A stretch of DNA of 64,000 nucleotides, from NCBI GenBank assembly GCA_965655465.1, contig CBFHGY010000003.1, positions 12,354-76,353 on the forward strand. The letters are read 5' to 3'. Below are positions 29,263-48,478 of the stretch, one piece after another (the stretch's first letter is position 1; each line of letters opens with the position of its first letter). The position numbers and the translations under genes were made by a program. Under the pieces are notes generated by a model that saw only the letters and a list, made by a program, of their open reading frames with translations, searched no databases and was not told the DNA's origin. This DNA is from Bacteroidia bacterium (lineage in GTDB: Bacteria; Bacteroidota; Bacteroidia; NS11-12g; UBA955).

Positions 29263-29329
29263 GGTAGTAAACGAAATTGGACCGAAATTTGTCTAACTTT
29301 CAAGCAAAACTACATTATTCTCAATAAAA

Positions 29330-30988: not shown

Positions 30989-31043
30989 TCCCATCAAGGA
31001 AATTCTCCGAAACGCGGCATTCTAAAATAGAGTGTCGCGTTTT

Positions 31044-31652: not shown

Positions 31653-31707
31653 TCAAAGACAAAGTTAGTTTAAAATACAAACACTACCTTTGTAGTAATT
31701 TCAAGTT

Positions 31708-33636: not shown

Positions 33637-34072
33637 GATTTGTTTTTACACTAAAGTAAAGGGCATAGGCCACGAAAACAATCACATACACTGGAGAAGC
33701 AATAATTTCAATAATCCGGTTATACATATCATGCAGTACGGTGTGCTCTCCTACAAACTGCCTATATAAACCGATTGACAGACAAATGAGGTCAAAAAAA
33801 GCTAAGAGCAGCCAGAATTGCAGCCTAAAATTAGGATGTAATGTTTCCCTTTTGAGAAAAAAATACCCCATAAATCCGAAGGTATATACCACGATTTCTC
33901 TGAGTGCAAATCGCACTGCATTGGTATTCCAAAAATCAGATTCTTCCTTTTGTTCGCGCACATATTCGCTGAAGAAATGATACATGACGTATAGGATCCA
34001 CATGATTAGGACCCATAATCCGAAACGGATTACTTTTCTGCGGATTTGTTCCCCCGTAAATAAATAATCCAT
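33620..34072 (-). CDS. Exosortase F system-associated membrane protein (partner of XrtF)
   Basis: It is a small multi-TM protein of 150 aa. It lies immediately downstream of, and overlaps, the XrtF-like gene. This is the conserved two-gene arrangement for XrtF. Confidence 0.5.
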   Translation of the reverse strand: MDYLFTGEQIRRKVIRFGLWVLIMWILYVMYHFFSEYVREQKEESDFWNTNAVRFALREIVVYTFGFMGYFFLKRETLHPNFRLQFWLLLAFFDLICLSIGLYRQFVGEHTVLHDMYNRIIEIIASPVYVIVFVAYALYFSVKTNHEKQI

Positions 34073-34587
34073 ATAGCAAACATGATTACGTAAACGATAA
34101 ATTGAAAAATAGTTTTATGAAATATTTGAAACCAATCGGGATGATTTTTCGCCAGAAAAAACAACGCAACAATGCGCAAGATATTGGTTATATATAAGAA
34201 GACAACCCCCCCAATAGTAAACCAGGCCTTGCGTTTCCAATTTATTCCTGGGAATATCAAAATAAATGCAGCGCACAAATAATACAATTCCCAACCGTCG
34301 CAAGCAGAACCTATTAAAATACGCCCTCGCACATCTGCAACGTTCCAGATGCAGTACCCTGTAATATTTTCGGTTGAACTGAAGGTGGTAGGCTCCGTAC
34401 CGGTAATCCAAGAAATAAGGATAGCCGAATTTTCAGCTAAACTGCGAACCAAAACATTGTGAATAAGATCGATATCCGCAACGGGAAACCAGAGAAGAAA
34501 TGCAATTACCCCGTTTCTCAAAAACGCCATTTGGGTAGGCGTAAATTGTGAAAAGAGGGAATTGATTTTGAAAATTTTCTTGATCAT
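34030..34587 (-). CDS. xrtF: Exosortase family protein XrtF
   Basis: About 185 aa, polytopic. A conserved Cys (GSACDGWELYY) and an NxxR motif (ITNILRIV) match the exosortase/archaeosortase catalytic-residue pattern. The short length is typical of XrtF. Confidence 0.6.
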   Translation of the reverse strand: MIKKIFKINSLFSQFTPTQMAFLRNGVIAFLLWFPVADIDLIHNVLVRSLAENSAILISWITGTEPTTFSSTENITGYCIWNVADVRGRILIGSACDGWELYYLCAAFILIFPGINWKRKAWFTIGGVVFLYITNILRIVALFFLAKNHPDWFQIFHKTIFQFIVYVIMFAIWIIYLRGNKSAEK

Positions 34588-34621
34588 GCCCTACAAAGAT
34601 AGGCAAAGAAAACGAGGGGAA

Positions 34622-35083
34622 TTAGCGGGGCATTTCACCAAAAAGCGCAATCAATTTTTCGAAGCGATAATCGAAAATACCTTTAACTTTTGCATCTACA
34701 AAAAGCGCGCCTGCAATGGAACCTAGAGGACCTTTACCAATATCATAGTTGAGGATATCGGTCATTTTTACTCCACCCTCAATGGCTTCAAAATGATGTT
34801 CGTGGTGCCAAATATGATAGGGCCCTTTACGTTGTTCATCTACAAAAAAGGCGTGTTCTTTTATATGGGTAATTTCGGTACACCAGTCGAGTTGAATTCC
34901 TAAGAACGGCGAAATCTTGTAGGTAATAAACATGCCTTCATACATTTTTTCGGGTATATCCGAAGTGATTTTGAAGGTCATATCTGTCGGGGTGATTTCA
35001 TTCAAGTTTTTTGGGGAGGAAAAGAAATCCCAAGCTTTTTCCAAACTGATAGGCAAGGATTGTACAGATACGAGTTTTTTCAC
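34622..35083 (-). CDS. SRPBCC (START/Bet v1-like) ligand-binding domain protein
   Basis: 153 aa. The pattern is typical of the polyketide-cyclase/SRPBCC superfamily. Confidence 0.5.
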   Translation of the reverse strand: MKKLVSVQSLPISLEKAWDFFSSPKNLNEITPTDMTFKITSDIPEKMYEGMFITYKISPFLGIQLDWCTEITHIKEHAFFVDEQRKGPYHIWHHEHHFEAIEGGVKMTDILNYDIGKGPLGSIAGALFVDAKVKGIFDYRFEKLIALFGEMPR

Positions 35084-35236
35084 TAATAACTAACAAAGGT
35101 GGTGGGGAAAGGTTTATGAAATATAATTTCAAAAGCTACATTTCATTTTCATGAATTATTATAATTCTAGTTAACAAACATGAAAATCACGCGAAGGATT
35201 AAGTATAATTTTTTCAACAACTCCTAAAAACTACCC

Positions 35237-36061
35237 TCAATCCACAATCTCCACTATCGACAACACCATCTCTGGATAAATCAATACCCCGTCATCTCCA
35301 TTTGTGCGGCGGATTTGTACCTTTATTGTTAGGCTCGAACTTGAACTATTATCATACACCCCACTAATCGGAAACAACATGGCTTCCCGAGCACCCGTTC
35401 CCGTTCCCTGAACATATAACTGCCTCTTCGCCTGTAACGTACTCGTAGTACTGCCATCGTTGATGGTTAAAATTGCCTCGTTCTCATCGTCGCTACCGGA
35501 TGTAGCTTGACCCCGTATACTCGAACGTGTATCGTAGCGAATCCACAATCTCGAACTGCTCGAAACCGGGGTATAAGAGTAACTGATTACATCGGTATAA
35601 CTCGTTGAATTAATCGTGACATTACTCGAAAAATTCAAATCACTCGCATCTAATAAAACCTGCCGCAATACCTGCCCCTTTGCCGTACCTCGAACAAAGC
35701 CGCTTGCCTTCAAATTGCCGCTTACATGTAATGCCTCCGCAGGCGTCCCTGTAATTCCAATACCTACATTTCCTCCATTGGGCTGCAACCTCAGACCATC
35801 TACATCGCTGTAATCGCCCTTATTCCTGGATTGAAGCCAAACTGCGTCTGTGGCCAACTGTAACCCAAGGTCCAAGGTAGTTGTGCCCAAGCTTCCACCG
35901 ATACGTAAAAATCCATTACCCGAACTGCCAGTATTGGATACATCCGAAGCCGCTGCTTGAATTTCAAGGGTGTTTTTAGGGGTTGTGGTACCCACTCCCA
36001 ACTGTGCCTTCAAGGAAACAGCTGTTGCGAAAATTGCAAATAATAATTCCCCTTTTTTCAT
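35237..36061 (-). CDS. Secreted protein, paralog 3 of 3, with a tail-fibre-like N-terminal motif
   Basis: Signal peptide, then QLGVGTTTPKNTLEIQ. It shares blocks with the two upstream genes (LQPNGGNVGIG, GQVLRQVLLDASDL, SYSYTPVSSSSR, LTIKVQI). Confidence 0.6.
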   Translation of the reverse strand: MKKGELLFAIFATAVSLKAQLGVGTTTPKNTLEIQAAASDVSNTGSSGNGFLRIGGSLGTTTLDLGLQLATDAVWLQSRNKGDYSDVDGLRLQPNGGNVGIGITGTPAEALHVSGNLKASGFVRGTAKGQVLRQVLLDASDLNFSSNVTINSTSYTDVISYSYTPVSSSSRLWIRYDTRSSIRGQATSGSDDENEAILTINDGSTTSTLQAKRQLYVQGTGTGAREAMLFPISGVYDNSSSSSLTIKVQIRRTNGDDGVLIYPEMVLSIVEIVD

Positions 36062-36846
36062 CTTGCCACCTCCGTAATCGTTAATAACATATCGGGTTCA
36101 AGGGTAAAAGTATCGTCAATGCCTAATTCCTGAACGTCGATTTTAATTGTGAGCGTGCTGGTACCCGAATTGATATATACTCCGCTAATAGGTAACAATG
36201 AAGTGGCGCGACCTCCGCCTCCACTTGCATTGTCGAAATACGACTGACGGGTTTGGATGGTCGTACTTCCTACCAATAAATAGGAATACCAATCGTCGTT
36301 ACCAGATCCTCCTATGCTATATTTCCCGTTGAAGGCCACAAAAATCTTACTGTTTGAAGATACCGGAGTATAATTATATGATACTATGGTAGATCTTGCA
36401 TTTGCAACCTGTGTATTTCCCGATTTTGACAAATCCGATTCATTGAGCACCACGGTATTCAAAACTTGACCCGCTTGAGCGGCCTTTACGCTTCCGGATA
36501 GATATATATCGCCGTTTACGGTAAGTATTTCACTGCCTTCGCTCCCATTTATGGCTACTTTTCCGCCATTGGGATTTAATAAAAGTGGGTTTGAATTGGA
36601 GTAATTTGAGGCATCACGAGCTTGGATCCATGCATTCGTAGTACCGTTAACACCCGCATCCCCAGCGGCATTCGACCCCGTTTTTTGAATGCGCATCACC
36701 CCATTGGCTGCACTTCCCGATCCCGCAGCTGCTGCAGACACCCCAACAACATCCAAATTATTCACCGGAGCATTCGTTCCAATACCGGTTTGCGCGAGTA
36801 CCGGCAGCACCGTTAATCCACAAACCAAGAATATCATGTTTTTCAT
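36058..36846 (-). CDS. Secreted protein, paralog 2 of 3, with a tail-fibre-like N-terminal motif
   Basis: Signal peptide, then QTGIGTNAPVNNLDV. It shares blocks LLNPNGGKVAING, AGQVLNTVVLNESDL, SYNYTPVSSNSK and LTIKIDV. It overlaps its neighbours by 4 nt. Confidence 0.6.
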   Translation of the reverse strand: MKNMIFLVCGLTVLPVLAQTGIGTNAPVNNLDVVGVSAAAAGSGSAANGVMRIQKTGSNAAGDAGVNGTTNAWIQARDASNYSNSNPLLLNPNGGKVAINGSEGSEILTVNGDIYLSGSVKAAQAGQVLNTVVLNESDLSKSGNTQVANARSTIVSYNYTPVSSNSKIFVAFNGKYSIGGSGNDDWYSYLLVGSTTIQTRQSYFDNASGGGGRATSLLPISGVYINSGTSTLTIKIDVQELGIDDTFTLEPDMLLTITEVAR

Positions 36847-37643
36847 CGTGCGATCTCCTTAATAATTAACGTAGCGTCTGGATAAACGATTAAATTGTCA
36901 TCGGTACTGGTACGATAAGCCGAAACACGAATTGTCAAAGCATTTGTGCCGCTATTTTGATAGTATCCCATTAGAGGAAAGGGCGGATTTCCGCGACCAC
37001 CGCCTCCGCCACTACTCCCCCCATCAAATCGCATGGCATTTGCTTGAACACGCGTTCCCCCAATAGTCAAAAACGTTTCTACAATATCGGAAGCACTACC
37101 ACTTAAAAAAGCCCGCCCGTCGTATTCAACATAAATTTTAGAACTGCTCGAAACGGGAGTGTAGGTATAGGAAACCAAGGTCGTTTCAGAAGTGCCACTT
37201 ACGGTAATGCTGGAACCGAAGTTTAAGTCCGACTCGTCTAAAAATACCATATTAAGAATCTGTCCGGCACCCGCTGCTATCACACTGCCGTTGACCTGAA
37301 CGTTGCCTTGAACCGTTAATTTTTCATCGGGGGAAGTATTACCTACCCCTACGTTTCCGCCATTGGGATTCAACAGCAAGGGCATATTGGAAGTATAATT
37401 GGTGGCATTTCGCGCTTGTAACCATCCATAATTGTCTTTGCTCAAGCCAAAATCTAAAACTCCGTTGGCATTGGTACTCCCCAAACGCAGCACTCCATTT
37501 TGGGAACTTCCCGATTTAGCGGCAGCGGCAGTATCGCCAATTATATCAAAAGCATTTACGGGGGAAGTGGTATTCACACCGACCTGAGCAGATAAGACCG
37601 AACCTCCGACCAAGAGCGCAAATAATGAAACGAATTTCAACAT
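36843..37643 (-). CDS. Secreted protein, paralog 1 of 3, with a tail-fibre-like N-terminal motif
   Basis: Signal peptide, then QVGVNTTSPVNAFDI. It shares blocks LLNPNGGNVGVG, AGQILNMVFLDESDL, SYTYTPVSSSSK and LTIRVSA. Confidence 0.6.
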   Translation of the reverse strand: MLKFVSLFALLVGGSVLSAQVGVNTTSPVNAFDIIGDTAAAAKSGSSQNGVLRLGSTNANGVLDFGLSKDNYGWLQARNATNYTSNMPLLLNPNGGNVGVGNTSPDEKLTVQGNVQVNGSVIAAGAGQILNMVFLDESDLNFGSSITVSGTSETTLVSYTYTPVSSSSKIYVEYDGRAFLSGSASDIVETFLTIGGTRVQANAMRFDGGSSGGGGGRGNPPFPLMGYYQNSGTNALTIRVSAYRTSTDDNLIVYPDATLIIKEIAR

Positions 37644-37829
37644 ATTATAACAAGAGTGTGAAGCGACTCAAAAATATACTGAAAATGCCCTAATTCGGCA
37701 GATTTACATCCACAAAAGGCTAAAAAAAACAAAAAAGTACACATAAGAACACGAAGTCATTTCGATTCGGCACCTTTAATAGGCCCGTACATGAACCATT
37801 TATAACGTACCGTTTGGCACCTGTATGCA

Positions 37830-38441
37830 TTATTTAACCCGAACGGTATTCAACTGTTCCATTACGACCTTTTGCCAATTATTCTCATCGGGCACGTATT
37901 CCCAATTCAATTCAGCAATATAACGATCCATAAACAAGATGATACGTCGGGCGGTAAAACGGTTTTTCTTTACCGTATTCAGCAACTGATTGTCGGACCG
38001 GGTAAATTTATAACTGAACTGCAATCCGCGGTATCCCATTACTTCAACAATCTCGGGCATTCCCAATTCTACTTGTTGATGCTTAGATGGATCCAAACCC
38101 TGTCGTTGTTTATTCCGGGTATCCATGGCAAAGTTCCGAACATAGGGGGTAAGTGTATCTTGTTTTAAATCTAAAAGAAATTTAGCATGGGCTTTTTCAC
38201 TCCAAGGATAACTGCGAATTGGTTGAATCCAAAGTACCACATGGGTAAATTGGGGATCGAAGCCCCCGCCTTTATACCCTTTTTGTCGGAAGCAATAGCC
38301 GGGTTGATTATTCATTTCCTCGGCGGAGACCCATTCTAATTTCGGGTGTGTTTCTTTAATAATAAACTCGGGGTATTGGGCTTTTAAAACAGAACTCACA
38401 ATAACAAATCCGCAAAGTAAAAAGGGGCCTAATCGTTTCAT
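37830..38441 (-). CDS. Hypothetical secreted protein (203 aa)
   Basis: Signal peptide (FLLCGFVIVSSVLKAQ). No recognisable motif. Confidence 0.45.
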   Translation of the reverse strand: MKRLGPFLLCGFVIVSSVLKAQYPEFIIKETHPKLEWVSAEEMNNQPGYCFRQKGYKGGGFDPQFTHVVLWIQPIRSYPWSEKAHAKFLLDLKQDTLTPYVRNFAMDTRNKQRQGLDPSKHQQVELGMPEIVEVMGYRGLQFSYKFTRSDNQLLNTVKKNRFTARRIILFMDRYIAELNWEYVPDENNWQKVVMEQLNTVRVK

Positions 38442-38547
38442 ACAAAATGCAAAGGTAAATCAATCTTAAGACCTTTTAATAAGGCGTGAAAAGTTCCAAG
38501 TGTCTCCTACTTAAGCTGTATATTGCAGCGTTAAAGGGTAGAATTAA

Positions 38548-39651
38548 ATGAATTCGGAAATTTTTAAAAATATCAATAAAATCATAGAGCGAGACAATAA
38601 AACCTCGACCTATAAATTCGCGCTGTTGCGCGGAGTGATTGATATTATCCAAAGCAATTCTCCATATATAAAAATCGAAGGGGAACGGGCTATTTTACCC
38701 ATGGGTTTGCTTATTGAGAATTGGATACTGTATTACTATCCCATCTTAGCAAATAAAATCCCACAGATTTATGGGAAAAATACCCAACTTCAATTCGAGA
38801 CTCATTTAAGTGAAGTAATTGAATTCTATGCAAAAAAAGGAGGGATGTCTGCCTTCTATCGAGATATGCGCAATAATGGCATTGCCGATATCCAAGATAT
38901 TTTCACTCCCTTGGTTAAATCAATGCGAAAGACTATCGCTACTATGCCCATGAAATACATTGGCAAATCGATCTACAATGAAGAATATGCCATTTTCAAG
39001 CCCAATAGCGACACCTATAAAACAACTAAAATATACGACACCCACAGTTTGCTTAACTATTCCGGCACGTTTAGCATTCCACTTGATTATTATGAAGCGT
39101 TTAAACTCTTAGGAAGTTTTATTTCCGGACAAAACACATTATTGTTCAAGTGGGCAGAGTTTTCATACGAAGCATCTGGAAGATCCATTCAAAAAGAAAC
39201 CGTTTTCGAACAAATGACCGAGTATGCCGTGGTAGACCGAAATATCACCGCAACAAAGCGCATTTATAGTGAATTATTGGAACGTCAGAAAAAGATCTTT
39301 TGTGTATGGACCGGTGAAAAAACAAGTTCATTTGATATCGATCATATGCTGCCATTTTCTGTTTGGAAAAATAACGATTTATGGAATCTGCTTCCAGCAA
39401 AAACATCGGTTAATCGTGAAAAAAGTGACAAAATCCCTACCCCTGAATTAATCCATAAAAGACAAGACATTATTTTCGAATACTGGGATCTTCTAAAGAA
39501 TAGTTTTGAATTTCGATTCGAAAAAGAAATTGAATTCGCCCTTATTGGAGATAAGCAGAATAATTGGAAAGATGCAGCAATTTCGCAAATTCAAAATAAC
39601 TGCGAATACCTTATCGAATCGCGCGGATATACCCCATGGAGTCCTAAATAG
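38548..39651 (+). CDS. Protein with a C-terminal HNH-type nuclease motif and an uncharacterised N-terminal domain of about 270 aa
   Basis: C-terminal CVWTGEKTSSFDIDHMLPFSVWKNNDLWNLLPAKTSVNREKSDK matches the HNH pattern (C..G...D.DH..P.S...N..N.LLP...N..K). The N-terminal region (KTSTYKFALLRGVIDII...) has no motif I can assign. Confidence 0.6.
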   Translation: MNSEIFKNINKIIERDNKTSTYKFALLRGVIDIIQSNSPYIKIEGERAILPMGLLIENWILYYYPILANKIPQIYGKNTQLQFETHLSEVIEFYAKKGGMSAFYRDMRNNGIADIQDIFTPLVKSMRKTIATMPMKYIGKSIYNEEYAIFKPNSDTYKTTKIYDTHSLLNYSGTFSIPLDYYEAFKLLGSFISGQNTLLFKWAEFSYEASGRSIQKETVFEQMTEYAVVDRNITATKRIYSELLERQKKIFCVWTGEKTSSFDIDHMLPFSVWKNNDLWNLLPAKTSVNREKSDKIPTPELIHKRQDIIFEYWDLLKNSFEFRFEKEIEFALIGDKQNNWKDAAISQIQNNCEYLIESRGYTPWSPK

Positions 39652-39659
39652 TCCAATAT

Positions 39660-40781
39660 TTAAATAAAACAGGCATTACAACCCTCGCCCTCGTTATCGA
39701 GTACAATATCCTTCCATGATTCCTTTTTAATAAGCTTCTCCCTCTGCGTGCGCTTGTAATGATCTCTCTTAATTTGAGCTACACGTTCTGGCCTAGATAA
39801 ATCCTCCAATCGCTCTTCGCTCCAGGAATAACCATCCTTTTCATAATCCATAGCTGTAGCAAATAATTCCGGATGTGTCTCTAAAAGCCATACCCACTCA
39901 ATTTTCTGCTGATAAAAACAGAAAAAGCAACCACTGCGACTTCTAGAATATGTTCCTTTTACTATTTCACCGTCTAATTCTACCTCGTATTCCAAAGGCG
40001 TGTAATACGCCGGAATTCCCACCCCACTTTCTTCTAATATCCTGTAAATATCGTCAATACCAAAATTCGAATCCTTATAAATCAAAGGAAAATCTTCCAA
40101 TTTTCCCACCGGATAATCTGTCGTTTTCAAAAAGTCAAATACTACTTTATTAAAAGCCACCACATCAATATCCAACAAATCCGATACCTTTTGTTTTTGA
40201 CCGTATCGCATGGATATCGGCTGCTCTAAATAATACAATACCGCATTTAACTTATCGCCCTCAACATGACTTTTATAACTCTCTATCAAAGAGGAAATCC
40301 GGCTATTGGCGAATGTTTTAGTAATTACATCTTCGCTCCAAATATTTCGACGAAATGGGAAAATGCTCTGAATATTCTCCTTTTTAGAAATATATCCCTC
40401 TCTGTCTTCATCTCCTCGTATGCCCACATAAGAAATGGTAGGATTCATTCCTATCTCTTTCTCGAATGGATCTAATTTCATCTTCTTTGTGCACCACCTC
40501 GATGTAGAAGAGGGCAAATACCCTCCGTAAACAGCCAAAAAATGATCGAAGGAAGAAGACTCCGACGTTGCAAATACATCTACCGACTTATACTCCGTTA
40601 TATTCTTTCCCAATACTGAATTTAAACGCTCAATCAAATCATAGGTTTCTTTGAGCTCCTTACCGGTATCACAGGTATAATAATTGATATTTAAAGCCGG
40701 AAAATTCTGACTCATGTAAATAGCCAAAGCCGCACTATCTTTCCCTCCTGAAATCCCTAAAACATGATTGATCGTATTCAT
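39660..40781 (-). CDS. Phosphoadenosine phosphosulfate (PAPS) reductase family PP-loop ATP pyrophosphatase with a C-terminal Cys cluster
   Basis: PP-loop motif LGISGGKDSAALAIYM and an RWCTKKMKLDP block typical of the PAPS reductase family. The C-terminus has CFFC ... CNAC (two CxxC). 373 aa. Confidence 0.65.
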   Translation of the reverse strand: MNTINHVLGISGGKDSAALAIYMSQNFPALNINYYTCDTGKELKETYDLIERLNSVLGKNITEYKSVDVFATSESSSFDHFLAVYGGYLPSSTSRWCTKKMKLDPFEKEIGMNPTISYVGIRGDEDREGYISKKENIQSIFPFRRNIWSEDVITKTFANSRISSLIESYKSHVEGDKLNAVLYYLEQPISMRYGQKQKVSDLLDIDVVAFNKVVFDFLKTTDYPVGKLEDFPLIYKDSNFGIDDIYRILEESGVGIPAYYTPLEYEVELDGEIVKGTYSRSRSGCFFCFYQQKIEWVWLLETHPELFATAMDYEKDGYSWSEERLEDLSRPERVAQIKRDHYKRTQREKLIKKESWKDIVLDNEGEGCNACFI

Positions 40782-40836
40782 AGTCCCCCAGCAAGAATAA
40801 TCGAGCCAACTGGATTAAACAATGTCCAAATAAAAA

Positions 40837-41262
40837 ATGAATGTATTTTTGCTTAAATCATTTCAAACCACAATCTTGAATCAACAAAATAACAATACAT
40901 GCCTCTTTTGCTACACAGATCGCGAAATACTCATTGAGAATGAGCTTGCCTTTGCGATTTTCGATAAATTTCCTGTTGTGGAAGGACATATTTTGATTAT
41001 TCCCAAAAGACACTTCGACAATTATTTTGAAATAACGCAAGCCGAACTAGAAGCGAACCATGCGATTATCCTTGAATTAAAACAACAATTACAAGAAAAA
41101 GACGCAAGTATTTCGGGGTTCAACATAGGAATAAACCAAGGCATCGATGCGGGTCAAACGGTTATGCATTGCCACATACATTTAATTCCCCGTCGATTGG
41201 GTGATGTTGCCGAACCACGCGGTGGCATCCGGCATTTAATACCAGGGAAGGGGTTTTATTGA
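40837..41262 (+). CDS. HIT (histidine triad) family nucleotide hydrolase/transferase
   Basis: Histidine triad HCHIHLIP. CxxC-like N-terminal zinc motif (CLFC). 141 aa. It is divergent from the PAPS-reductase-like gene across a 55-bp spacer. Confidence 0.75.
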   Translation: MNVFLLKSFQTTILNQQNNNTCLFCYTDREILIENELAFAIFDKFPVVEGHILIIPKRHFDNYFEITQAELEANHAIILELKQQLQEKDASISGFNIGINQGIDAGQTVMHCHIHLIPRRLGDVAEPRGGIRHLIPGKGFY

Positions 41263-41301
41263 GGGCTTGGACTTTCCAAAATTACCAACTTTCCCCTCAC
41301 G

Positions 41302-41616
41302 CTAAAGCCCATACCGCAGCCACTCGTAACCAGTCCGTGTCCACACGCGGAGGAGCTCCCGCTCTTGTTCGCTGAAATCCCCGTTGTTGAATCCTTCTAA
41401 ATCTGTAATGTCCATGTTAAAATCCCCCAATTCATCGATTTCCCAAGAAACCCAATCCGGATTTACATGTAATGTTCCTACACAGGGAAAGGACTTTCCC
41501 GCACGAATTAAATTTCCCATAATACAACGTTGCCCTCCATTACCCCCACGTATTTTTACAGGAGGTTTGGGAGGAGACACCTGTTTTTTGATACGTTTAG
41601 TAGTACTCACTTTCAT
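41302..41616 (-). CDS. Hypothetical small protein (104 aa). Strand assignment is uncertain, because an overlapping 103-aa ORF exists on the + strand at 41384..41695.
   Basis: ORF only. It has a basic N-terminus (KRIKKQVSPPKPPVKIRGGNGGQR). No assignable motif. Confidence 0.25.
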   Translation of the reverse strand: MKVSTTKRIKKQVSPPKPPVKIRGGNGGQRCIMGNLIRAGKSFPCVGTLHVNPDWVSWEIDELGDFNMDITDLEGFNNGDFSEQERELLRVWTRTGYEWLRYGL

Positions 41617-41901
41617 AATCCAATGGCAAAATCAATATGTGCAAAATAACCCCCGTTCCCCTATTCTTTCGGTTTTTTTAAATTCTCAAGAATAAAAAAA
41701 AACAACTCTTTTGGTAAATCCCAAACAAATCTGCTATTCAATAGCCGATTTATCTAGAACCTAAAACTTTTTAAATTGGATTCTTGGCAAGCCTATCGTT
41801 ATATATAGCTACTCGTTGCACAATACCCAGATTTGGAATGATTGCGTGCTAAGGGCCTTGTATACAAATAGAGAGCAAACTTAAATTCGTAAGTAAAAGT
41901 T

Positions 41902-42252
41902 TTATGTTCTGTCGTGTATAAACACCCACGTATTTCCCTCCAAAATTATGAAATGTGCAAGGGTTACCACACATTCGTGCTCTTCGATCATGGGTGATTT
42001 TCCAAAACGAGATTCAAATTCACGGTGAAGTGCCACCATACATACATTTTGAGCATTCACTCCAAAAGGTCCGGAGCGCAAATTTTTATTATACGTTTCC
42101 ACCAATTCCTCATTGGAATGAGTTTTCAGGGATTCGGCGAAATCGGCGAAAAGTTGTAGGTTATCGCCGTAAAGCGATGCGATGAAGGTTCGGATTTTCT
42201 GAGGACCTCTGCCTGAGTTTCCGATTTGTGGTTGAGAATGATTGTGATTCAT
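41902..42252 (-). CDS. Hypothetical small protein (116 aa)
   Basis: ORF only. It has the same orientation as the adjacent tRNA. Confidence 0.3.
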   Translation of the reverse strand: MNHNHSQPQIGNSGRGPQKIRTFIASLYGDNLQLFADFAESLKTHSNEELVETYNKNLRSGPFGVNAQNVCMVALHREFESRFGKSPMIEEHECVVTLAHFIILEGNTWVFIHDRT

Positions 42253-42518
42253 AGTGCTTTGTTTTTGACTTTAAGTCCCCATCATTTTGCCACCGTGGTA
42301 AGCTACCCGGTTGGAGCGAAGCCGAAGCGCCGCGTCTTGATGTACTGCAAATATAAAATCAAGTTATGACAATTTTAAAAAAGACATTCTCGAAATACTC
42401 CATTTCATCCATTCATGAATATATTTAGTCTAAAACCTGGATAGATCGCGTATAAAAAAATGCCAAGGTGAATTGTTAAGTGATCAAAAAAATTAAGTTA
42501 AATTACGGGGAGCAAAAA

Positions 42519-42543
42519 AAAAGCCTCGCGATTGCGAGGCTTC
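42519..42543 (-). terminator. Rho-independent terminator immediately 3' of tRNA-Phe
   Basis: The minus strand reads GCCTCGC-AATC-GCGAGGC followed by TTTTTTTT. Confidence 0.8.
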
Positions 42544-42619
42544 TGGTGGTATCGGACGGAATCGAACCGCCGACACAAGGATTTTCAGTCCTTTGCTCTA
42601 CCGACTGAGCTACGATACC
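42544..42619 (-). tRNA. tRNA-Phe (anticodon GAA), 76 nt with an encoded CCA
   Basis: The minus-strand sequence folds as a cloverleaf: GGTATCGTAGCTCAGTCGGTAGAGCAAAGGACTGAAAATCCTTGTGTCGGCGGTTCGATTCCGTCCGATACCACCA. It has an acceptor stem GGTATCG/CGATACC and a GTTCGATTC T-arm. The anticodon loop is CTGAAAA with GAA at positions 34-36. Confidence 0.9.
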
Positions 42620-42877: not shown

Positions 42878-45718
42878 ATGAAAGCATTAAACATCAAAAA
42901 GTACTTATTAATCGGAATGATTTTAGGACTTGGATGGAACTTTAATTTATATGCACAAACGATTACCAGCGTATCGTTACAAGGAGCTAAGCCTACAGGA
43001 ACCAATACATGGGATGTTGATTACATAAATGGAGCAAATTCTATTATTGAAAAAGAAGTTTCCATAGGTTATTCGAATCATACGAATAATGGAAATGGTA
43101 ATGGAAAAGATTATTTTTATTACACACAATCAGGAACAAGCCTTTGTTGGGAAGTATTACAAGGAGGTTCAGGCTCAAACTCATGGAAAACATTGCCATT
43201 TTGTGAATCAGCCAATGGTGGATTAAACAATGATCCGACACAAGGAACACATATAACTTATTTCCGGTATAACTCTGGTAAAACTGGTTGTGCTACCACA
43301 GGTACTTTCACAGAAACGTTGTCCATTGGATGGTCAACAGTAAGCGGAAGTTCTTGCTCTGGATTTAAAACGGGTACCACACCGTTAGAATTAGAGGTAA
43401 CTGTACAGGTTGTAACCGACAATCTTTACACTTGGTCAGAACCAACATCGGGAACAGACAGCTCGTATAAAATTGCTGGCAACTGGACCCCTACTCGAAC
43501 CTCTCCTAGTACAGACGATATTTTAGTTGTAGACTTAGCACAAGGTTCCAATCGAAACACGACGATTTACATGGACGGTGTATCTGATCAAATAAATCAA
43601 TTTAAAATATTTCCGAATAATTATGTCACCTTTAAATGCTCTACCAGCACCAACACGGGTAATTGGACCACAGGGAATGTCACATCTTCTGACGGCGACG
43701 ATTTTGTTTTAGATTCCCTAGCTGGGATGCGCTTTGACGCAGGAACACTTAACTTGAATATACCCTCAGGCAATACGGCTATGTTCAAGTCTGACCTTAA
43801 CGTGGCTGGAGGCACCTTAAATATTAATGGACCTGGATCCATCACCCACAGAAAAAACATCAACACAACAGGTGGAGCATTGAATTACAAATCTTCAGCT
43901 ACCACTACGCTTAATCTAGCTGGTAAAGACACCAAACTATCGGGTACCGGGGGTTCATTGTATATCGATTCCACCGTAAATGTGGTTATTGGAAACGGCG
44001 CGACATCGAGCTACACGCTTGAAAGAATACTTCCTATAATTTCTAATCTTTCACTTAAATCGGGTACAACCCTATATTCTAATGCTCCTACTTCTTACAC
44101 ATCGGTAAGTGCTATTAATGCATGGACGCCCTTTTTACAATTAAAGGCAACCCCTAAACCTAACTCTACAGCCCACGGTCAAATTGTAGAGATATTGGGG
44201 AATGCCACTATCGATGGTGGCGCACAATTTGAGATTTATAACAACAAACAACGTGCTTACAGAGCTTTTGGTATTCCTTTAAAAAATGGAACACTAATTC
44301 CACAATTTACAGATGATATTGTCGTAACCGGTACCGTTACTGGAAGCAATGCCAATGATTTCACTACCACCTGTTCCTACTGCACGCATTCCATGTTCCA
44401 GTGGAACGAAAGCACCAGTTCATGGACGCCATATGCTTCAGGCAATGATCTCACGAATATTCCTTTGGGAACTGGAATCCTTACCTTCTTCAGAGGTGCT
44501 ATTGGAAACGGATTGGGTGATACATCCGCATCAGCTAACGAACAAATCATCGACTTTAAAGGTGAACTTACCGTAGGGAGGCCCAGTATTGTACTCAACA
44601 ACGGTGGAACTGGAGCCTTAAAAGGCTATAATTTAATAGGCAACCCCTACCCCTCTGCCATTGACTTACGATTAGTTTATGAATCTAATAAGTCCAAAAT
44701 TTTACCCAGATTCTATTTCTACGATGCCATTGCCCGCAGATACAACGAGTGGGATAGTGTAACAAGCAACGGAAATTCTACGACGCCCAAGAAAAACGGA
44801 ACTACCAAATTCCAAAATCCTGGAAATAGTGTAAAAAAAGAAGCCCGAATATTAGATGCCGGTGGAGCCGTATTCGTTGTGGTAAGCTCCAATAACGCCA
44901 CAGAAACCATAACCTTCAACGAGTCACATAAAGAGCGTAGCTTACGCTCAGCAACCAAACATTTTTCAAGCGGTGTTCAAGAAGAAAATACCGTACCATG
45001 CAACGAATTGAAAGGAATGTTGCAATACCAAAAAACCGACTCCTTTCCTGAAAACGATGGTTTTACCCTAGAATTTGATATCGAAGATGGCAATCCCAAA
45101 GGCGATATCATGGATATGAATAAGTTGTATGCAGGATACTTAGGACTAGGTACCTTAACTTCTAACGACTATTGGTTATCTATAGACCGCCGCAATAAAA
45201 TTGCAGAAATTGGAGAAACCAAATCTATTCCTTTAAAGGTAGCCTATCCCAAGGAAAGTCCTGCAGCCGTGGAATTGGTGTTTCAAACTTGCGATGAGAC
45301 TAACAAATCTTACGATATTCAATTATTCGATAAATTAACTCAAAAGGCCCATCCCGTGAATAACGGCAGTGTATATCCATTTACAGCTCAAACCGCTGAA
45401 GAGAAAAAACCGGATCGCTTTGAATTGCTCTTTACCGGTATTGAAAAACAGAATAATATTTCAAGTCAACACGTAAATCCCATCGCTGTTTTCCCAAATC
45501 CTTCAGAAAATGGTGTGTTTTATGTTCTTAACAAAGAACAAAACACAAAAACAGCTTACGAAGTATTCGAACTGAATGGTCAAGTTATCACCAAAGGCAC
45601 CTTGGAGTCTAGCAATCAAGTAAATACCATAAATCTAAGCGATGCTCCCAAAGGCATCTATATAATCAAATTCACTTCAAACAATCAAACTTCAACTCAA
45701 AAAGTACAACTTTATTAA
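42878..45718 (+). CDS. Large secreted T9SS cargo protein (946 aa), tandem paralog A
   Basis: Signal peptide (LLIGMILGLGWNFNLYAQ). The passenger region is Thr/Ser/Gly/Asn-rich. The C-terminal Por sorting domain is FPNPSENGVFYV...KGIYIIKFTSNNQTSTQKVQLY. Confidence 0.7.
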   Translation: MKALNIKKYLLIGMILGLGWNFNLYAQTITSVSLQGAKPTGTNTWDVDYINGANSIIEKEVSIGYSNHTNNGNGNGKDYFYYTQSGTSLCWEVLQGGSGSNSWKTLPFCESANGGLNNDPTQGTHITYFRYNSGKTGCATTGTFTETLSIGWSTVSGSSCSGFKTGTTPLELEVTVQVVTDNLYTWSEPTSGTDSSYKIAGNWTPTRTSPSTDDILVVDLAQGSNRNTTIYMDGVSDQINQFKIFPNNYVTFKCSTSTNTGNWTTGNVTSSDGDDFVLDSLAGMRFDAGTLNLNIPSGNTAMFKSDLNVAGGTLNINGPGSITHRKNINTTGGALNYKSSATTTLNLAGKDTKLSGTGGSLYIDSTVNVVIGNGATSSYTLERILPIISNLSLKSGTTLYSNAPTSYTSVSAINAWTPFLQLKATPKPNSTAHGQIVEILGNATIDGGAQFEIYNNKQRAYRAFGIPLKNGTLIPQFTDDIVVTGTVTGSNANDFTTTCSYCTHSMFQWNESTSSWTPYASGNDLTNIPLGTGILTFFRGAIGNGLGDTSASANEQIIDFKGELTVGRPSIVLNNGGTGALKGYNLIGNPYPSAIDLRLVYESNKSKILPRFYFYDAIARRYNEWDSVTSNGNSTTPKKNGTTKFQNPGNSVKKEARILDAGGAVFVVVSSNNATETITFNESHKERSLRSATKHFSSGVQEENTVPCNELKGMLQYQKTDSFPENDGFTLEFDIEDGNPKGDIMDMNKLYAGYLGLGTLTSNDYWLSIDRRNKIAEIGETKSIPLKVAYPKESPAAVELVFQTCDETNKSYDIQLFDKLTQKAHPVNNGSVYPFTAQTAEEKKPDRFELLFTGIEKQNNISSQHVNPIAVFPNPSENGVFYVLNKEQNTKTAYEVFELNGQVITKGTLESSNQVNTINLSDAPKGIYIIKFTSNNQTSTQKVQLY

Positions 45719-45721
45719 TAA

Positions 45722-48478
45722 ATGAAAAACTCTTGGCTATTATTATTCATCTTCTTCCAAATTTCCATTGTCAAAGCGCAATCCATTACAGGAATTATTG
45801 CTCAAGGAGCAAGCGCTACTAGCACCAACGGTGTTTGGAGCCTTGAATGGGATGATAATGAAGATACTACCTCTAAAATAGTTAAAGAAATAACCCTTAC
45901 GCTTTCTGGAAGCACAAACGGTAAGAAGTTAATTTTTGATGCCAGTAATGCGAGCGCCGATTGGCAAATCCAATTTGGCAGTAGAAATTCCAAAGCCTGG
46001 AAAACCTTTTGTCAGGAAACTCCAGGCTTAGGAAGTAACAAAACGGATTACACCTTCTCGATAAGAGATTTAAGCACATCTTTAGGCACACATACGAATA
46101 CAATATATGTCGGATTTGGAAACAATTGTAATAACGGATTTACTCCGCTTGTAACTATTAACATTTCGGTAAATGTAACCGACAAAAAGGTATACACTTG
46201 GGAAGGCCGAAGCGGTATAGATTCTTTTTATGATACTGACGAAAACTGGTACCCGGTAAGAACAAATCCCAATGTCAATGATATTCTTGTAGTGGACCTC
46301 GGCTCATCAACGAATAAAGTGAATACAACCATAGATATTTCTGGAGTAAGCGAAAATATTGGACAATTTAAAATCTACCCCTATAATCATGTTGATTTCA
46401 AATGCACCACGGATGCCAATTGGACTGTAGGTAGACCTTCCTCATTGAGTGGAGTAGATTTTAATGTTTCCTTAAATTCCGACATTCGTAAAACCGGTGC
46501 CGGTGAACTTGAAATTATTGTACCCGCTAATAATTCTTTAGATATCGATGGCAGCATTACCACCCTTGCTGGAGATTTATTATTCTCAGGTGCTGGTACC
46601 CATAATATTTCAGGTAATATAAATACCCTTGGCGGTTTGCTCAATTTCACCCCCAGTAGTGGTACAAATACCTTATATTTAGATGGCAGCAAACAAGTTC
46701 TTTCGGGAAACAGTTATGTGAGTGGAACTCCTACCTTATACATCGATACCAATTTCAACGTTACCGTTGGTACTGCCTCTACTAGTCCCGTTGATACACT
46801 AACATTACAACGCACACTTCCGATTTATTCGGTAGTTACCCTAAGTCCTGGAACTCGCATTATTTCCAATAATCCTGCTTCAAGTTCTGAATCAGATTGG
46901 AATGCCTGGGAACCCTATTTCCAGTTAAAAGCCCCTCAATTTAACCAAGCGGTTAAACGCGGACAATTGAACGTGGTTCCCACTAGTTCAGAAATTGTTG
47001 GGGGAAGCTTATTCGAAATTTATGGAACCAATGTTAGAGCTTATCGCATGATTGGCCTCCCCTTCGCAAATGGGGTGCACCTTTCTCAATTTTCAGATGA
47101 CATAGATCTAACCGGTACCTTAAATGGCACTACCAATAAAGATTCCTTTGAAACCAGTTGCAGCGTATGCAAAACTTCCGCATTTTATTGGAATGAATCA
47201 TCAGGCTCTTGGAATGCCTATGTTTCTGGCGCTACTGCAAATATTTTACCTAAAGGAAATGGAAGTTTGATTTTCTTTAGAGGTCGGAAATCCAATGGTT
47301 TGGGAGATACCGGTGCTACTGCTAACGAGGGCATTATTGATTTCAAAGGCAAGTTACAGGTGGGCAATTATACGCATACCCTCACGAAATCATCCGGTTC
47401 TGGTGCTTTAACAGGCTTTAATTTAGTAGCAAATCCATACCCATCGAATATTACCTTTGACGAAGTCTACTCCAAACACAAAGGAAGGGTAAAACCAAGA
47501 TATAGAACTTACGATGCACGCCGTAAAACCTATAATATCTGGGATTCAACCGTTCAGAACAGTCCTGGTAAATCTGGAGCCCGAAAATTTGCAAGTTCAA
47601 GCAACCAACAAGCCAAAATCATTGCCGCTGGAGCTGCATTTTTTATTGAAGCTGAGGCCAATAATGAAACAATTTCATTTACCGAAAGCATGAAAACTCC
47701 GTTTACTGAAGCTACAACCGCTCAACATGGAGTGCAAGAACTAAACGAAACCCCCTGCAATCATTTATTGGTGAATTTAGCATACCGCAGCGATACCCTT
47801 TTCGACTCCGACAATGTTACCATTCAATTTGATATTGAAAACCCCACCGTAACTCACAATGCTACAGAAACAGACGTAGTAGAGTTTTATGCGGGATACC
47901 TAGGTATCGGAACGCTATCTCCAGAAGGAACCTGGCTCACCATAGACCGCAGACCTAAAATGGCCGAAATCAATGAAAGTTATACCTTACCGCTTAAAAC
48001 CGTTTATCCTAAAGATGCCCTAAAACAAATGGTAATGGATTTCAATTATTGTACTGAAGAACAATCCAATTATCAGATTTTATTAATCGACAAAGTAAAG
48101 AATACAAGTACCGAAGTAAAGGATCTTATGAGTTATTCTTTTGAGATTTCAAGTTCTGAAGAAAAGCGTGACAATCGTTTTGAACTATTATTTACTGGAA
48201 TAGAAAAACAAAATTCAACGGAGAATCTATCACATACATCATTAAGCATTTTCCCAAATCCTTCAGATAACGGAGAATTCTTTATCGCCAATCCCCAAAA
48301 TCATGCTATAAATACCCTACAAATTCTAGATCAAAGCGGTAAAATCGTTCTGGAATCATCGATTGAATCAAAACAAAGTCTTATCCATATGAACATCGAA
48401 ACCTTAAAGTCGGGTTGGTATATTCTGCGTATAAATAGCCTTACAAACAGTGAAAACCACCCCATAATCATCAAATAA
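45722..48478 (+). CDS. Large secreted T9SS cargo protein (918 aa), tandem paralog B
   Basis: Signal peptide (LLLFIFFQISIVKAQ). Blocks are shared with paralog A (YTWxxxSGxDSxY..NWxPxRTxP..DILVVDL, QFKI(F/Y)P, ELLFTGIEKQN). The C-terminal Por sorting domain is FPNPSDNGEFFI...SGWYILRINS. Confidence 0.7.
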   Translation: MKNSWLLLFIFFQISIVKAQSITGIIAQGASATSTNGVWSLEWDDNEDTTSKIVKEITLTLSGSTNGKKLIFDASNASADWQIQFGSRNSKAWKTFCQETPGLGSNKTDYTFSIRDLSTSLGTHTNTIYVGFGNNCNNGFTPLVTINISVNVTDKKVYTWEGRSGIDSFYDTDENWYPVRTNPNVNDILVVDLGSSTNKVNTTIDISGVSENIGQFKIYPYNHVDFKCTTDANWTVGRPSSLSGVDFNVSLNSDIRKTGAGELEIIVPANNSLDIDGSITTLAGDLLFSGAGTHNISGNINTLGGLLNFTPSSGTNTLYLDGSKQVLSGNSYVSGTPTLYIDTNFNVTVGTASTSPVDTLTLQRTLPIYSVVTLSPGTRIISNNPASSSESDWNAWEPYFQLKAPQFNQAVKRGQLNVVPTSSEIVGGSLFEIYGTNVRAYRMIGLPFANGVHLSQFSDDIDLTGTLNGTTNKDSFETSCSVCKTSAFYWNESSGSWNAYVSGATANILPKGNGSLIFFRGRKSNGLGDTGATANEGIIDFKGKLQVGNYTHTLTKSSGSGALTGFNLVANPYPSNITFDEVYSKHKGRVKPRYRTYDARRKTYNIWDSTVQNSPGKSGARKFASSSNQQAKIIAAGAAFFIEAEANNETISFTESMKTPFTEATTAQHGVQELNETPCNHLLVNLAYRSDTLFDSDNVTIQFDIENPTVTHNATETDVVEFYAGYLGIGTLSPEGTWLTIDRRPKMAEINESYTLPLKTVYPKDALKQMVMDFNYCTEEQSNYQILLIDKVKNTSTEVKDLMSYSFEISSSEEKRDNRFELLFTGIEKQNSTENLSHTSLSIFPNPSDNGEFFIANPQNHAINTLQILDQSGKIVLESSIESKQSLIHMNIETLKSGWYILRINSLTNSENHPIIIK

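What the first reader, a model, noticed from the sequence alone, without database searches (positions are those of the whole stretch)
37650..42619. AT-rich accessory segment abutting the 3' end of tRNA-Phe with a mixed-orientation set of nuclease, PP-loop ATPase, HIT and orphan genes
Directly downstream of the tRNA-Phe 3' end (42544) the gene content changes abruptly. Housekeeping and operon-organised genes give way to short, AT-rich, mixed-orientation ORFs: a secreted 203-aa protein, an HNH protein, a PAPS-reductase-like protein, a HIT protein and two unknown ORFs of 104 and 116 aa. tRNA 3' ends are classical integration sites for genomic islands. Nearly every gene here lacks an assignable function. 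No integrase is visible, so the segment may be an old, decayed island or may be delimited differently.
Basis: partly seen in the sequence, partly recalled or inferred. Interest (0 to 1): 0.7.

Follow-up and report, generated by a model that had tools for sequence, protein, structure and literature searches.

The report
Orphan SspD flanked by HNH and HIT
Next to a tRNA-Phe gene lies a swappable slot holding a conserved three-gene cassette, in which an unnamed nuclease-plus-HIT gene pair has replaced most of a DNA-sulfur-modification (Ssp) defence system and kept only its sulfur-insertion enzyme.

Summary
Relatives show that the stretch between tRNA-Phe and a conserved SRPBCC gene is hypervariable. 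There is no integrase and no attachment repeat, and the compositional shift is small.

The core (38548-41262) is not a decayed set of orphans. It is a cassette under purifying selection with three genes:
- a winged-helix + Cas9-type HNH nuclease;
- SspD, the PP-loop enzyme of Ssp DNA phosphorothioation systems;
- a HIT hydrolase.

HNH followed directly by HIT is a widespread two-gene operon of Bacteroidota that I did not find described. It occurs in 56 of 66 informative metagenome loci and is absent from the phage collections.

This pair sits repeatedly inside broken ssp operons and, in this sample, never beside an intact sspBCD. Two ~97% identical contigs carry either sspB-sspC or HIT at exactly the same place upstream of sspD.

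I read the cassette as an Ssp-derived hybrid defence module. Its biochemistry is inferred only.

The parts
38548..39651 (+). 367-aa nuclease with N-terminal winged-helix domains (about residues 1-180), a helical linker, and a Cas9-type HNH (HNH_4) domain with catalytic H266, N280 and N289 invariant
39660..40781 (-). 373-aa SspD, the PP-loop ATP pyrophosphatase / sulfur-insertion enzyme of Ssp phosphorothioation systems. It has the SGGKDS motif and C-terminal CFFC and CNAC cysteines. Here it is an orphan, with no sspB, sspC or sspE nearby.
   Evidence: PADLOC SspD, E 2.3e-83. It is 91% identical to the SspD of a canonical sspB-sspC-sspD-sspE locus, L081. dN/dS against L082 is 0.017. No other Ssp gene is found in the 64-kb window.
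40837..41262 (+). 141-aa HIT-family nucleotide hydrolase/transferase with an intact HxHxHxx motif (HCHIHLI). It is the usual operon partner of the HNH gene.
   Evidence: Pfam HIT, E 6.4e-22. The closest solved relatives are generic Hint/Fhit proteins. HIT directly follows HNH in 56 of 66 informative loci. dN/dS against L082 is 0.10.
41302..41616 (-). 104-aa orphan ORF of unknown function; possibly not a gene
   Evidence: No Pfam, PADLOC or NCBIfam hit. No homolog in any fetched locus.
41902..42252 (-). 116-aa ORF of unknown function, accessory at this locus
   Evidence: No family hit. A 53% identical homolog lies at the right edge of L082. It is absent from this slot in L171, L174 and L175.
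42251..42348 (-). SAM-I/IV riboswitch aptamer abutting the start codon of the 116-aa ORF
   Evidence: Rfam RF01725, 44.4 bits against a gathering score of 41.1, full-length match.
42544..42619 (-). tRNA-Phe (GAA), the conserved right-hand anchor of the variable slot
   Evidence: ARAGORN and Rfam tRNA at 73.5 bits. 100% identical copies (74 of 76 nt aligned) lie in the equivalent position in L171 and L174.
37830..38441 (-). 203-aa protein with a signal peptide. It is a conserved resident of the slot, not part of the accessory cassette.
   Evidence: 72% identical homolog between SOUL and SRPBCC in L174, and 32% in L175/L176. An identical copy is in L090.
35237..37643 (-). Three tandem paralogs (274, 262 and 266 aa, with signal peptides). 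This is a separate, GC-rich, lineage-specific insertion between the SRPBCC gene and the 203-aa gene.
   Evidence: Repeat families D1 and D3. GC is 0.45-0.46. The paralogs are present only in L090.
34622..35083 (-). SRPBCC-family gene, the conserved left-hand anchor of the variable slot
   Evidence: 82-89% identical orthologs with conserved synteny beyond them in L082, L171, L174 and L175.

Best explanation
The segment is accessory DNA in a hypervariable, defence-island-like slot between tRNA-Phe and a conserved SRPBCC gene. It is not an integrase-type island.

Its core is one selected three-gene cassette:
- a winged-helix + HNH nuclease;
- SspD;
- a HIT enzyme.

HNH followed by HIT (often fused to a SAM methyltransferase) is a widespread, so far unnamed two-gene operon of Bacteroidota defence islands. 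In this lineage it has replaced the sspB-sspC genes upstream of sspD and the sspE gene downstream of sspD in a canonical SspBCD-SspE phosphorothioation system. Only sspD was kept.

Proposed working:
1. The nuclease reads DNA through its winged-helix domains and nicks or cuts it.
2. HIT clears or transfers nucleotide-phosphate adducts, either adenylates or thiophosphates.
3. SspD, an optional third component co-opted from the old operon, activates or thiolates phosphate. This links the nuclease to a phosphorothioate-type mark.

Shown: gene content, the recurrent association, allele replacement, purifying selection, and variable presence among relatives.

Inferred: the defence role (about 0.6) and every biochemical step (about 0.3).
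For: Variable slot. Relatives carry tRNA-Phe and SRPBCC with different contents between them.

Same trio in a second species. L082-L084 have the same arrangement at the same chromosomal place, at 83% nt identity.

Purifying selection. dN/dS is 0.069 for HNH, 0.017 for SspD and 0.10 for HIT. In an independent clade (L069/L074/L077/L132) SspD has dN of 0.08-0.11 with dS above 1.5 where it could be estimated (3 of 6 pairs; not estimable for the rest).

The HNH-HIT pair. HIT is adjacent downstream of HNH in 56 of 66 informative loci; 29 of these are MTase-HIT fusions and 27 are HIT alone. The family has 1321 homologs at E of 1e-3 or better and 413 cluster representatives at 50% identity.

Defence-island neighbours. 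These include CBASS, PDC-M11, PLD nucleases and helicases.

Link to Ssp.
- Of 80 SspD loci, 73 are canonical or consistent with canonical and 2 are uninformative. All 5 loci lacking sspB/sspC carry HIT, plus HNH where the contig reaches.
- 13 of 67 HNH loci have N-terminal sspB/sspC remnants directly upstream.
- L057 keeps only SspC residues 756-991 before sspD-HNH-Tpt1-MT-HIT.
- The sspBCD cluster is present in only 3.0% of genomes (PMC12914056).

Allele swap. L081 and L033 are 96-98% identical in the Peptidase_C92 gene and in sspD. Between those two genes L081 has sspB-sspC (4.3 kb) and L033 has a reversed HIT gene (0.48 kb).

Independent origins. HNH/HIT-linked SspDs fall in at least three clades, each sister to canonical SspDs.

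Methyltransferase link. The MT domain of the MT-HIT relatives best matches TIGR04096, 'DNA phosphorothioation-associated putative methyltransferase' (E 1e-19).

HIT chemistry. HIT enzymes are known to desulfurate nucleoside 5'-phosphorothioates (PMC8775712).
Against: - No experiment supports any step, and no PADLOC model matches the pair.
- All but one of the 80 metagenome HNH loci lack SspD in cis, so SspD is not required for the pair.
No sspA, sspB or sspC is in the window, and I could not search the rest of the genome.
- In the window, sspD lies inverted between HNH and HIT, so the three genes are not one operon.
- The trees are simple NJ trees.
- The two locus samples (80 + 80) are ranked by similarity to the window proteins, not drawn at random.
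Confidence: 0.5

Rival explanations
1. Antagonist model. HNH-HIT is a phosphorothioate-dependent (type IV-like) restriction module. The winged-helix domains sense PT-DNA, HNH cuts it, and HIT desulfurates the released thiophosphate nucleotides. Such a module cannot coexist with a PT writer. It is therefore found only where sspB/sspC have been destroyed, and sspD is a harmless leftover.
For: - HNH-HIT never sits beside an intact sspBCD. That is 0 of 73 canonical SspD loci and 0 of 13 Ssp-linked HNH loci.
- The remnants are truncated at varied points.
- Most HNH-HIT loci have no PT writer in cis.
- HINT1 desulfurates dNMPS.
- ScoMcrA is toxic together with dnd genes (abstract of PMC3009677).
- A Hymenobacter plasmid relative has a MazG-like NTP pyrophosphohydrolase in place of HIT. 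That fits a nucleotide-sanitising partner.
Against: - A useless sspD should decay. Instead it is the most constrained of the three genes (dN/dS 0.017).
- sspD is retained in at least three independent lineages.
- In L074 and L132 sspD is tightly coupled to MT-HIT in the operon, with gaps of 15-16 nt.
- The similarity to sulfur-binding domains is no better than to generic winged helices.
Confidence: 0.25
2. The cassette is a nucleic-acid end-processing or repair module rather than a defence system. HNH makes ends, and HIT, the methyltransferase, Tpt1/KptA and SspD modify or heal 5'-phosphate or 2'-phosphate ends. This would be analogous to Pnkp-Hen1 RNA repair.
For: Relatives add Tpt1/KptA RNA 2'-phosphotransferase and a class I methyltransferase to the operon. 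HIT enzymes such as aprataxin act on adenylated ends (my own knowledge). Some relatives carry a LexA-like S24 peptidase domain, which suggests coupling to DNA damage.
Against: The patchy, strain-variable distribution, the position in defence islands, and the replacement of a defence system all argue for a conflict role. No ligase or kinase partner was seen.
Confidence: 0.1
3. The cassette is a decaying remnant of an Ssp island with no present function.
For: sspB, sspC and sspE are missing. No integrase is present. The 104-aa ORF is an orphan.
Against: All three genes are intact with catalytic motifs. dN/dS is 0.02-0.10 across a divergence with dS of 0.7 to above 2. The same trio is kept in a second species, and equivalent trios are kept in other clades.
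Confidence: 0.05
4. The segment is a classical integrase-mediated genomic island inserted at the 3' end of tRNA-Phe.
For: The segment adjoins the tRNA 3' end and is variably present among relatives. There is a mild compositional deviation.
Against: - There is no integrase and no direct repeat of the tRNA end.
- The slot contents differ piecemeal between relatives rather than as one unit.
- A conserved resident gene (the 203-aa ORF) lies inside the variable zone.
- No relative of the HNH protein was found in the viral or phage collections.
Confidence: 0.05

Closest known systems
SspABCD-SspE single-strand DNA phosphorothioation defence system
   Same: The 373-aa protein is a bona fide SspD (PADLOC E 2.3e-83). 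It is 91% identical to the SspD of a canonical sspB-sspC-sspD-sspE-dndB-like locus, L081. That locus shares its Peptidase_C92 flank with relatives of this window.
   Different: sspB (DUF4007 nickase), sspC (ATPase) and sspE are absent here and in L082. HIT stands where sspB-sspC stand in L081. HNH stands where sspE stands.
ScoMcrA-type SBD-(SRA)-HNH enzymes, and the wHTH+SAD+HNH nucleases encoded beside Dnd modification genes (PMC6224610; PMC10853773)
   Same: The architecture is winged-helix DNA-binding domain(s) plus an HNH nuclease. The gene is physically associated with phosphorothioation genes.
TIGR04096, DNA phosphorothioation-associated putative methyltransferase
   Same: The methyltransferase domain fused to HIT in about half of the relatives best matches this family (E 1e-19, N-terminal 90 residues).
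   Different: The score is below the family cut-off (70.7 against 150 bits) and covers only the N-terminal part. The window's own HIT protein has no methyltransferase domain.
tRNA-associated integrative genomic islands
   Same: Variable accessory DNA directly next to a tRNA 3' end.
   Different: There is no integrase, no att direct repeat and no unit-like gain or loss.
HINT/Fhit histidine-triad nucleotide hydrolases
   Same: The HIT fold and HxHxHxx motif are present. The closest solved relatives are generic Hint/Fhit proteins. HINT1 cleaves P-S in nucleoside 5'-phosphorothioates.
   Different: This is not an ortholog of housekeeping HinT: it scores 73.7 bits against a cut-off of 130. It is encoded as the downstream partner of a nuclease.

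Membership tests
Ssp phosphorothioation system (SspABCD plus SspE or SspFGH) | SspD PP-loop ATP pyrophosphatase | tested here: met
   PADLOC SspD, E 2.3e-83. 91% identical to the SspD in canonical locus L081.
Ssp phosphorothioation system (SspABCD plus SspE or SspFGH) | SspB (DUF4007) and SspC (about 1050-aa ATPase) encoded next to sspD | tested here: not met
   No tblastn hit in the whole window. No PADLOC hit among the other 49 ORFs. 68 of the 80 comparison loci have both genes.
Ssp phosphorothioation system (SspABCD plus SspE or SspFGH) | PT-sensing restriction partner SspE (DUF262/DUF1524) or SspFGH | tested here: not met
   No hit in the window.
Ssp phosphorothioation system (SspABCD plus SspE or SspFGH) | Phosphorothioate actually present in the DNA | not testable with these tools
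   Needs LC-MS/MS of nuclease-digested genomic DNA.
Integrative genomic island at a tRNA gene | Adjacent to a tRNA 3' end and variably present among relatives | tested here: met
Integrative genomic island at a tRNA gene | Integrase gene and a direct repeat of the tRNA 3' end at the far border | tested here: not met
   The Pfam domains found in the segment's ORFs are only HNH, PAPS_reduct and HIT-family domains (HIT, DcpS_C, Ap4A_phos_N), plus a sub-threshold Headcase match. The 25-mer of the tRNA end occurs once at up to 3 mismatches. No such repeat was found.
Integrative genomic island at a tRNA gene | Compositional deviation from the host | tested here: inconclusive
   This is the lowest-GC and most tetranucleotide-deviant 3-kb window, but by only 3 GC points (z about 2).
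SBD-HNH phosphorothioate-dependent type IV restriction enzymes | Active HNH nuclease domain | tested here: met
   HNH_4 domain with H266, N280 and N289 invariant across 30 homologs. Enzyme activity itself was not tested.
SBD-HNH phosphorothioate-dependent type IV restriction enzymes | Sulfur-binding winged-helix domain | tested here: inconclusive
HIT superfamily | HIT domain with the histidine-triad motif | tested here: met
   Pfam HIT, E 6.4e-22. The motif HCHIHLI is read directly from the translation.
Catalogued anti-phage defence systems (PADLOC v2.0.0) | A specific model match for the HNH and HIT proteins | tested here: not met
   Only generic domain-level hits were found: Cas9 HNH, PtuB and ThsC2.

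The most novel reading that the evidence does not exclude
HNH-HIT, with optional SAM methyltransferase, Tpt1 and SspD, is a previously unrecognised family of phosphorothioate-linked conflict systems that supplants SspB/SspC in Ssp operons. Two versions of this reading remain open. In one, SspD plus the winged-helix HNH nickase forms a minimal PT writer that needs no SspB or SspC. In the other, the nuclease, HIT and methyltransferase form the first dedicated PT 'reader-eraser', which cuts PT-DNA and desulfurates or S-methylates the products. Either version would drive recurrent replacement of the writer genes.
Probability: 0.2. Interest if true: 0.85.

Novelty: new variant of a known kind. Interest (0 to 1): 0.6.

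Why it matters
Ssp and Dnd phosphorothioation are the only known DNA-backbone modification defences. Their effector repertoire and evolutionary turnover are still open questions.

This locus offers a clean natural experiment. Near-identical strains carry either sspB-sspC or HIT beside the same sspD. The locus also shows a widespread nuclease-HIT gene pair that repeatedly takes over ssp operons while sspD stays under strong constraint.

If the pair is a defence system, it adds a family that is abundant in Bacteroidota. If it reads or erases phosphorothioate, it would explain why many genomes carry partial PT gene sets. It would also give a biological role to the known P-S-cleaving activity of HIT enzymes.

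All of this is directly testable with a three-gene construct.

Tried and rejected
- An attachment-site repeat of the tRNA 3' end: none found.
- An exact-match lookup of the window's SspD: not on record.
- Foldseek of the HNH model against the PDB: no significant match.
- A viral-contig scan and a phage-database tblastn with the HNH protein: no relatives, so a phage homing-endonuclease origin is unlikely.
- A conserved cassette end or inverted repeat upstream of HNH: the upstream sequences of 75 loci share nothing beyond subgroup-specific stretches.
- Flavo-1 RNA copies occur at some junctions but are not universal. My nhmmer attempt for them failed.
- Literature searches found no description of an HNH-HIT(-SspD) module in the held library.
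- PDB sequence searches for SspD and for the MT domain gave nothing useful.
- A third conserved gene downstream of HIT: none. The neighbours are only varied defence-type genes.

Full report
**1. The observation**

ARAGORN finds one tRNA in the window, tRNA-Phe(GAA) at 42544-42619 on the minus strand. Its 3' end faces lower coordinates.

Domain searches give the following:
- HNH_4 in the 367-aa protein.
- PAPS_reduct in the 373-aa protein.
- HIT in the 141-aa protein.
- Nothing for the 203-, 104- and 116-aa ORFs.

PADLOC sharpens the second assignment. The 373-aa protein is SspD, the PP-loop enzyme of Ssp DNA phosphorothioation systems (E 2.3e-83).

Composition deviates only mildly:
- At 3-kb resolution, 38001-41000 has the lowest GC (0.374 against 0.405, z -2.1) and the largest tetranucleotide distance (z 2.4) in the window.
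- The 104- and 116-aa ORFs are GC-richer than average.
- The neighbouring 35-38 kb block deviates in the opposite direction (GC 0.438).

The 25-nt tRNA 3' end occurs once in the window at up to 3 mismatches. No relevant direct repeat exists.

**2. Is the segment variably present?**

I searched with the SRPBCC gene at 34622-35083 and recovered contigs from related bacteria. I compared all window proteins to them.

Synteny to the left of SRPBCC (PagL, thioredoxin-like protein, MatE, succinate dehydrogenase) is conserved. The content between SRPBCC and tRNA-Phe differs in every lineage:
- L175/L176: tRNA-Phe | 222-aa homolog of the 203-aa gene | SRPBCC.
- L174: tRNA-Phe | SOUL | 203-aa gene (72% identical) | SRPBCC.
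- L171: tRNA-Phe | four unrelated genes | SOUL | SRPBCC.
- The window: tRNA-Phe | riboswitch + 116-aa ORF | 104-aa ORF | HIT, SspD, HNH | 203-aa gene | three paralogs | SRPBCC.

It is not gain or loss of one integrase-bounded unit.

L082-L084 come from a further relative. Window 29002-35097 aligns to them at 72-83% nt. They carry the same trio in the same order and orientation at 83% nt identity, but with different neighbours: a SocA/MqsA-type gene on one side, and Peptidase_C92, a 211-aa gene and a WYL gene on the other.

**3. The trio is a selected unit**

Between the window and L082, dN/dS is 0.069 for HNH, 0.017 for SspD and 0.10 for HIT, with dS from 0.7 to above 2. All catalytic motifs are intact:
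- SGGKDS and the C-terminal cysteines in SspD.
- H266, N280 and N289 in the HNH domain.
- HCHIHLI in HIT.

This excludes a decaying remnant.

**4. HNH-HIT is a widespread two-gene module**

- The HNH protein has 1321 homologs at E of 1e-3 or better, mostly about 369 aa, all listed with HNH_4 as the precomputed Pfam domain.
- Its N-terminal 230 residues define 413 cluster representatives at 50% identity.
- In 80 metagenome loci found with the family alignment, HIT lies directly downstream of HNH in 56 of 66 loci that have enough sequence. It appears 29 times as a SAM-methyltransferase-HIT fusion and 27 times alone.
- In more distant relatives the methyltransferase is fused to the nuclease itself, sometimes with a LexA-like S24 peptidase at the C-terminus.
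- On a Hymenobacter plasmid a MazG-like NTP pyrophosphohydrolase replaces HIT.
- Neighbours are typical of defence islands: CBASS, PDC-M11, PLD and DpnI-like nucleases, and helicases. No third gene is constant.
- No relative is found in IMG/VR or in GenBank phages.
- PADLOC has no specific model for the pair, and I found no paper describing it.

**5. The link to Ssp**

Of the 80 genome loci holding SspD homologs:
- 68 have sspB and sspC immediately upstream.
- 5 more are cut by a contig end but still show sspC.
- 2 are uninformative.
- The remaining 5 (L033, L057, L069, L074, L077) lack sspB/sspC. All 5 carry HIT, with HNH wherever the contig reaches.

Their operons are:
- HNH - MT-HIT - SspD (L074).
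- HNH - MT-HIT - Tpt1 - SspD (L077).
- sspC fragment (residues 756-991) - SspD - HNH - Tpt1 - MT-HIT (L057).

Conversely, 13 of 67 HNH loci have pieces of sspB or sspC directly upstream of HNH. These are always N-terminal pieces, cut at different points:
- SspB residues 1-28, 10-34, 10-46, 3-72, 13-79, 6-189 and 1-219.
- SspC residues 4-217 to 4-224, 4-290 and 4-421.

L132 reads sspB(3-72) - HNH - MT-HIT - sspD. For comparison, sspBCD is present in only 3.0% of genomes (PMC12914056). In neither sample does HNH-HIT sit beside an intact sspBCD.

The SspD tree places the HNH/HIT-linked SspDs in at least three clades, each sister to canonical ones. In the L069/L074/L077/L132 clade SspD is again constrained (84-88% aa identity; dS above 1.5 for the three pairs where it could be estimated).

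**6. A natural allele swap**

L081 is the closest canonical locus. It reads Peptidase_C92 - sspB - sspC - sspD - sspE - dndB-like. L033 is 97.7% identical to L081 over the 135-aa gene plus Peptidase_C92, and 96.2% identical over sspD. Between those two blocks, L081 has sspB-sspC (4.3 kb) and L033 has a reversed HIT gene (0.48 kb). The breakpoints lie at the Peptidase_C92 stop codon and 8 nt inside sspD.

L082 has orthologs of the same Peptidase_C92 and 211-aa genes next to its trio. So in this group of bacteria the canonical Ssp system and the HIT / SspD / HNH trio are alternative alleles built around a constant sspD.

**7. Structure and chemistry clues**

- The AF2 model of the nuclease (pLDDT 78.7) shows two winged-helix-like modules, a helical linker and the ββα HNH core.
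- The HNH core resembles that of Cas9.
- The methyltransferase domain of the MT-HIT relatives best matches TIGR04096, 'DNA phosphorothioation-associated putative methyltransferase' (E 1e-19, below the family cut-off).
- HIT enzymes are known to convert nucleoside 5'-phosphorothioates to phosphates with release of H2S (PMC8775712).
- SspD, SspB and SspC are described as a PAPS-reductase-like pyrophosphatase, a triple winged-helix DNA-binding protein and an ORC/Cdc6-clade AAA+ ATPase (PMC10853773 and PMC12914056).

**8. Interpretation**

Shown:
- A hypervariable slot next to tRNA-Phe.
- A conserved, constrained trio.
- A widespread HNH-HIT operon.
- Recurrent physical replacement of ssp genes by that operon, with retention of sspD in several independent lineages.

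Inferred:
- The pair is a DNA-targeting defence module (about 0.6).
- SspD has been co-opted as an accessory component that links the module to phosphate activation or thiolation (about 0.3).

The main rival is that the pair attacks PT-DNA and is incompatible with the writer. That explains the mutual exclusion with intact sspBC. It does not explain why sspD is the most constrained gene of the three. A repair-type role, a decayed relic and an integrase island are less likely, for the reasons given under the rival explanations.

**9. Limits**

- Only 64 kb of the source genome is visible, so sspA, sspB or sspC in trans cannot be excluded.
- The locus samples are similarity-ranked, most are metagenome contigs, and the trees are simple NJ trees.
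- No biochemical step is tested.

Noticed in passing
window 42251-42348 (-) and 41902-42252 (-): A SAM-I/IV riboswitch (RF01725, 44.4 bits against a gathering score of 41.1) abuts the start codon of the unknown 116-aa ORF. An uncharacterised small protein therefore appears to be under SAM control. A 53% identical homolog lies at the edge of L082. The gene is absent from this slot in three other relatives.
   Followed up: partly
window 35237-37643 (-): Three tandem paralogs (274, 262 and 266 aa) with signal peptides and no family assignment. They are GC-rich (0.45-0.46). They are present in the same-species contig L090 and in none of the four related lineages, so they are a separate lineage-specific insertion in the same slot.
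   Followed up: partly
window 42878-48478 (+): Two large paralogous secreted proteins (946 and 918 aa) lie on the other side of tRNA-Phe. The first has a Por_Secre_tail domain. Both are absent in L171, and a single copy is present in L174. Both sides of the tRNA are therefore variable.
   Followed up: partly
L099 2228-2318, L098 324-399; pattern matches in L108, L132, L069: Copies of the Flavo-1 RNA motif (RF01705), whose function is unknown, sit at junctions between ssp remnants and the HNH cassette, and between MT-HIT and sspD. They may be repeat elements that mediate these rearrangements. None lies in window 35-43 kb.
   Followed up: partly
L093 1263-1466, L099 2344-2547, L108 194-394, L132 5793-5948: A conserved 67-aa ORF lies immediately upstream of HNH and overlaps its start in one subclade. 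Plasmid relatives likewise have a small gene (79-94 aa, one annotated as DNA-binding) just upstream of HNH. It may be a regulator. It is absent from the window.
   Followed up: partly
P0448, P0489, P0470, P0481 (relatives of the window HNH protein): These fusion architectures read SAM methyltransferase + winged-helix domains + HNH, and two of them carry a C-terminal LexA-like Peptidase_S24 domain. One methyltransferase domain passes the Pfam TPMT (thiopurine S-methyltransferase) cut-off.
   Followed up: partly
L091 2496-5994 and L095: An AAA_17 kinase-like gene, a 367-aa unknown gene and a PDC-M11A/B candidate defence pair are inserted between a truncated sspC (224 aa) and HNH. MT-HIT there is followed by a 400-aa unknown gene and an MksE-like gene.
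   Followed up: no
window 38548-39651 against 39660-40781: Synonymous divergence from L082 differs markedly between adjacent genes: dS is 0.72 for HNH, 2.6 for SspD and 1.5 for HIT. This hints at a more recent exchange of the HNH gene or at different codon constraints.
   Followed up: no
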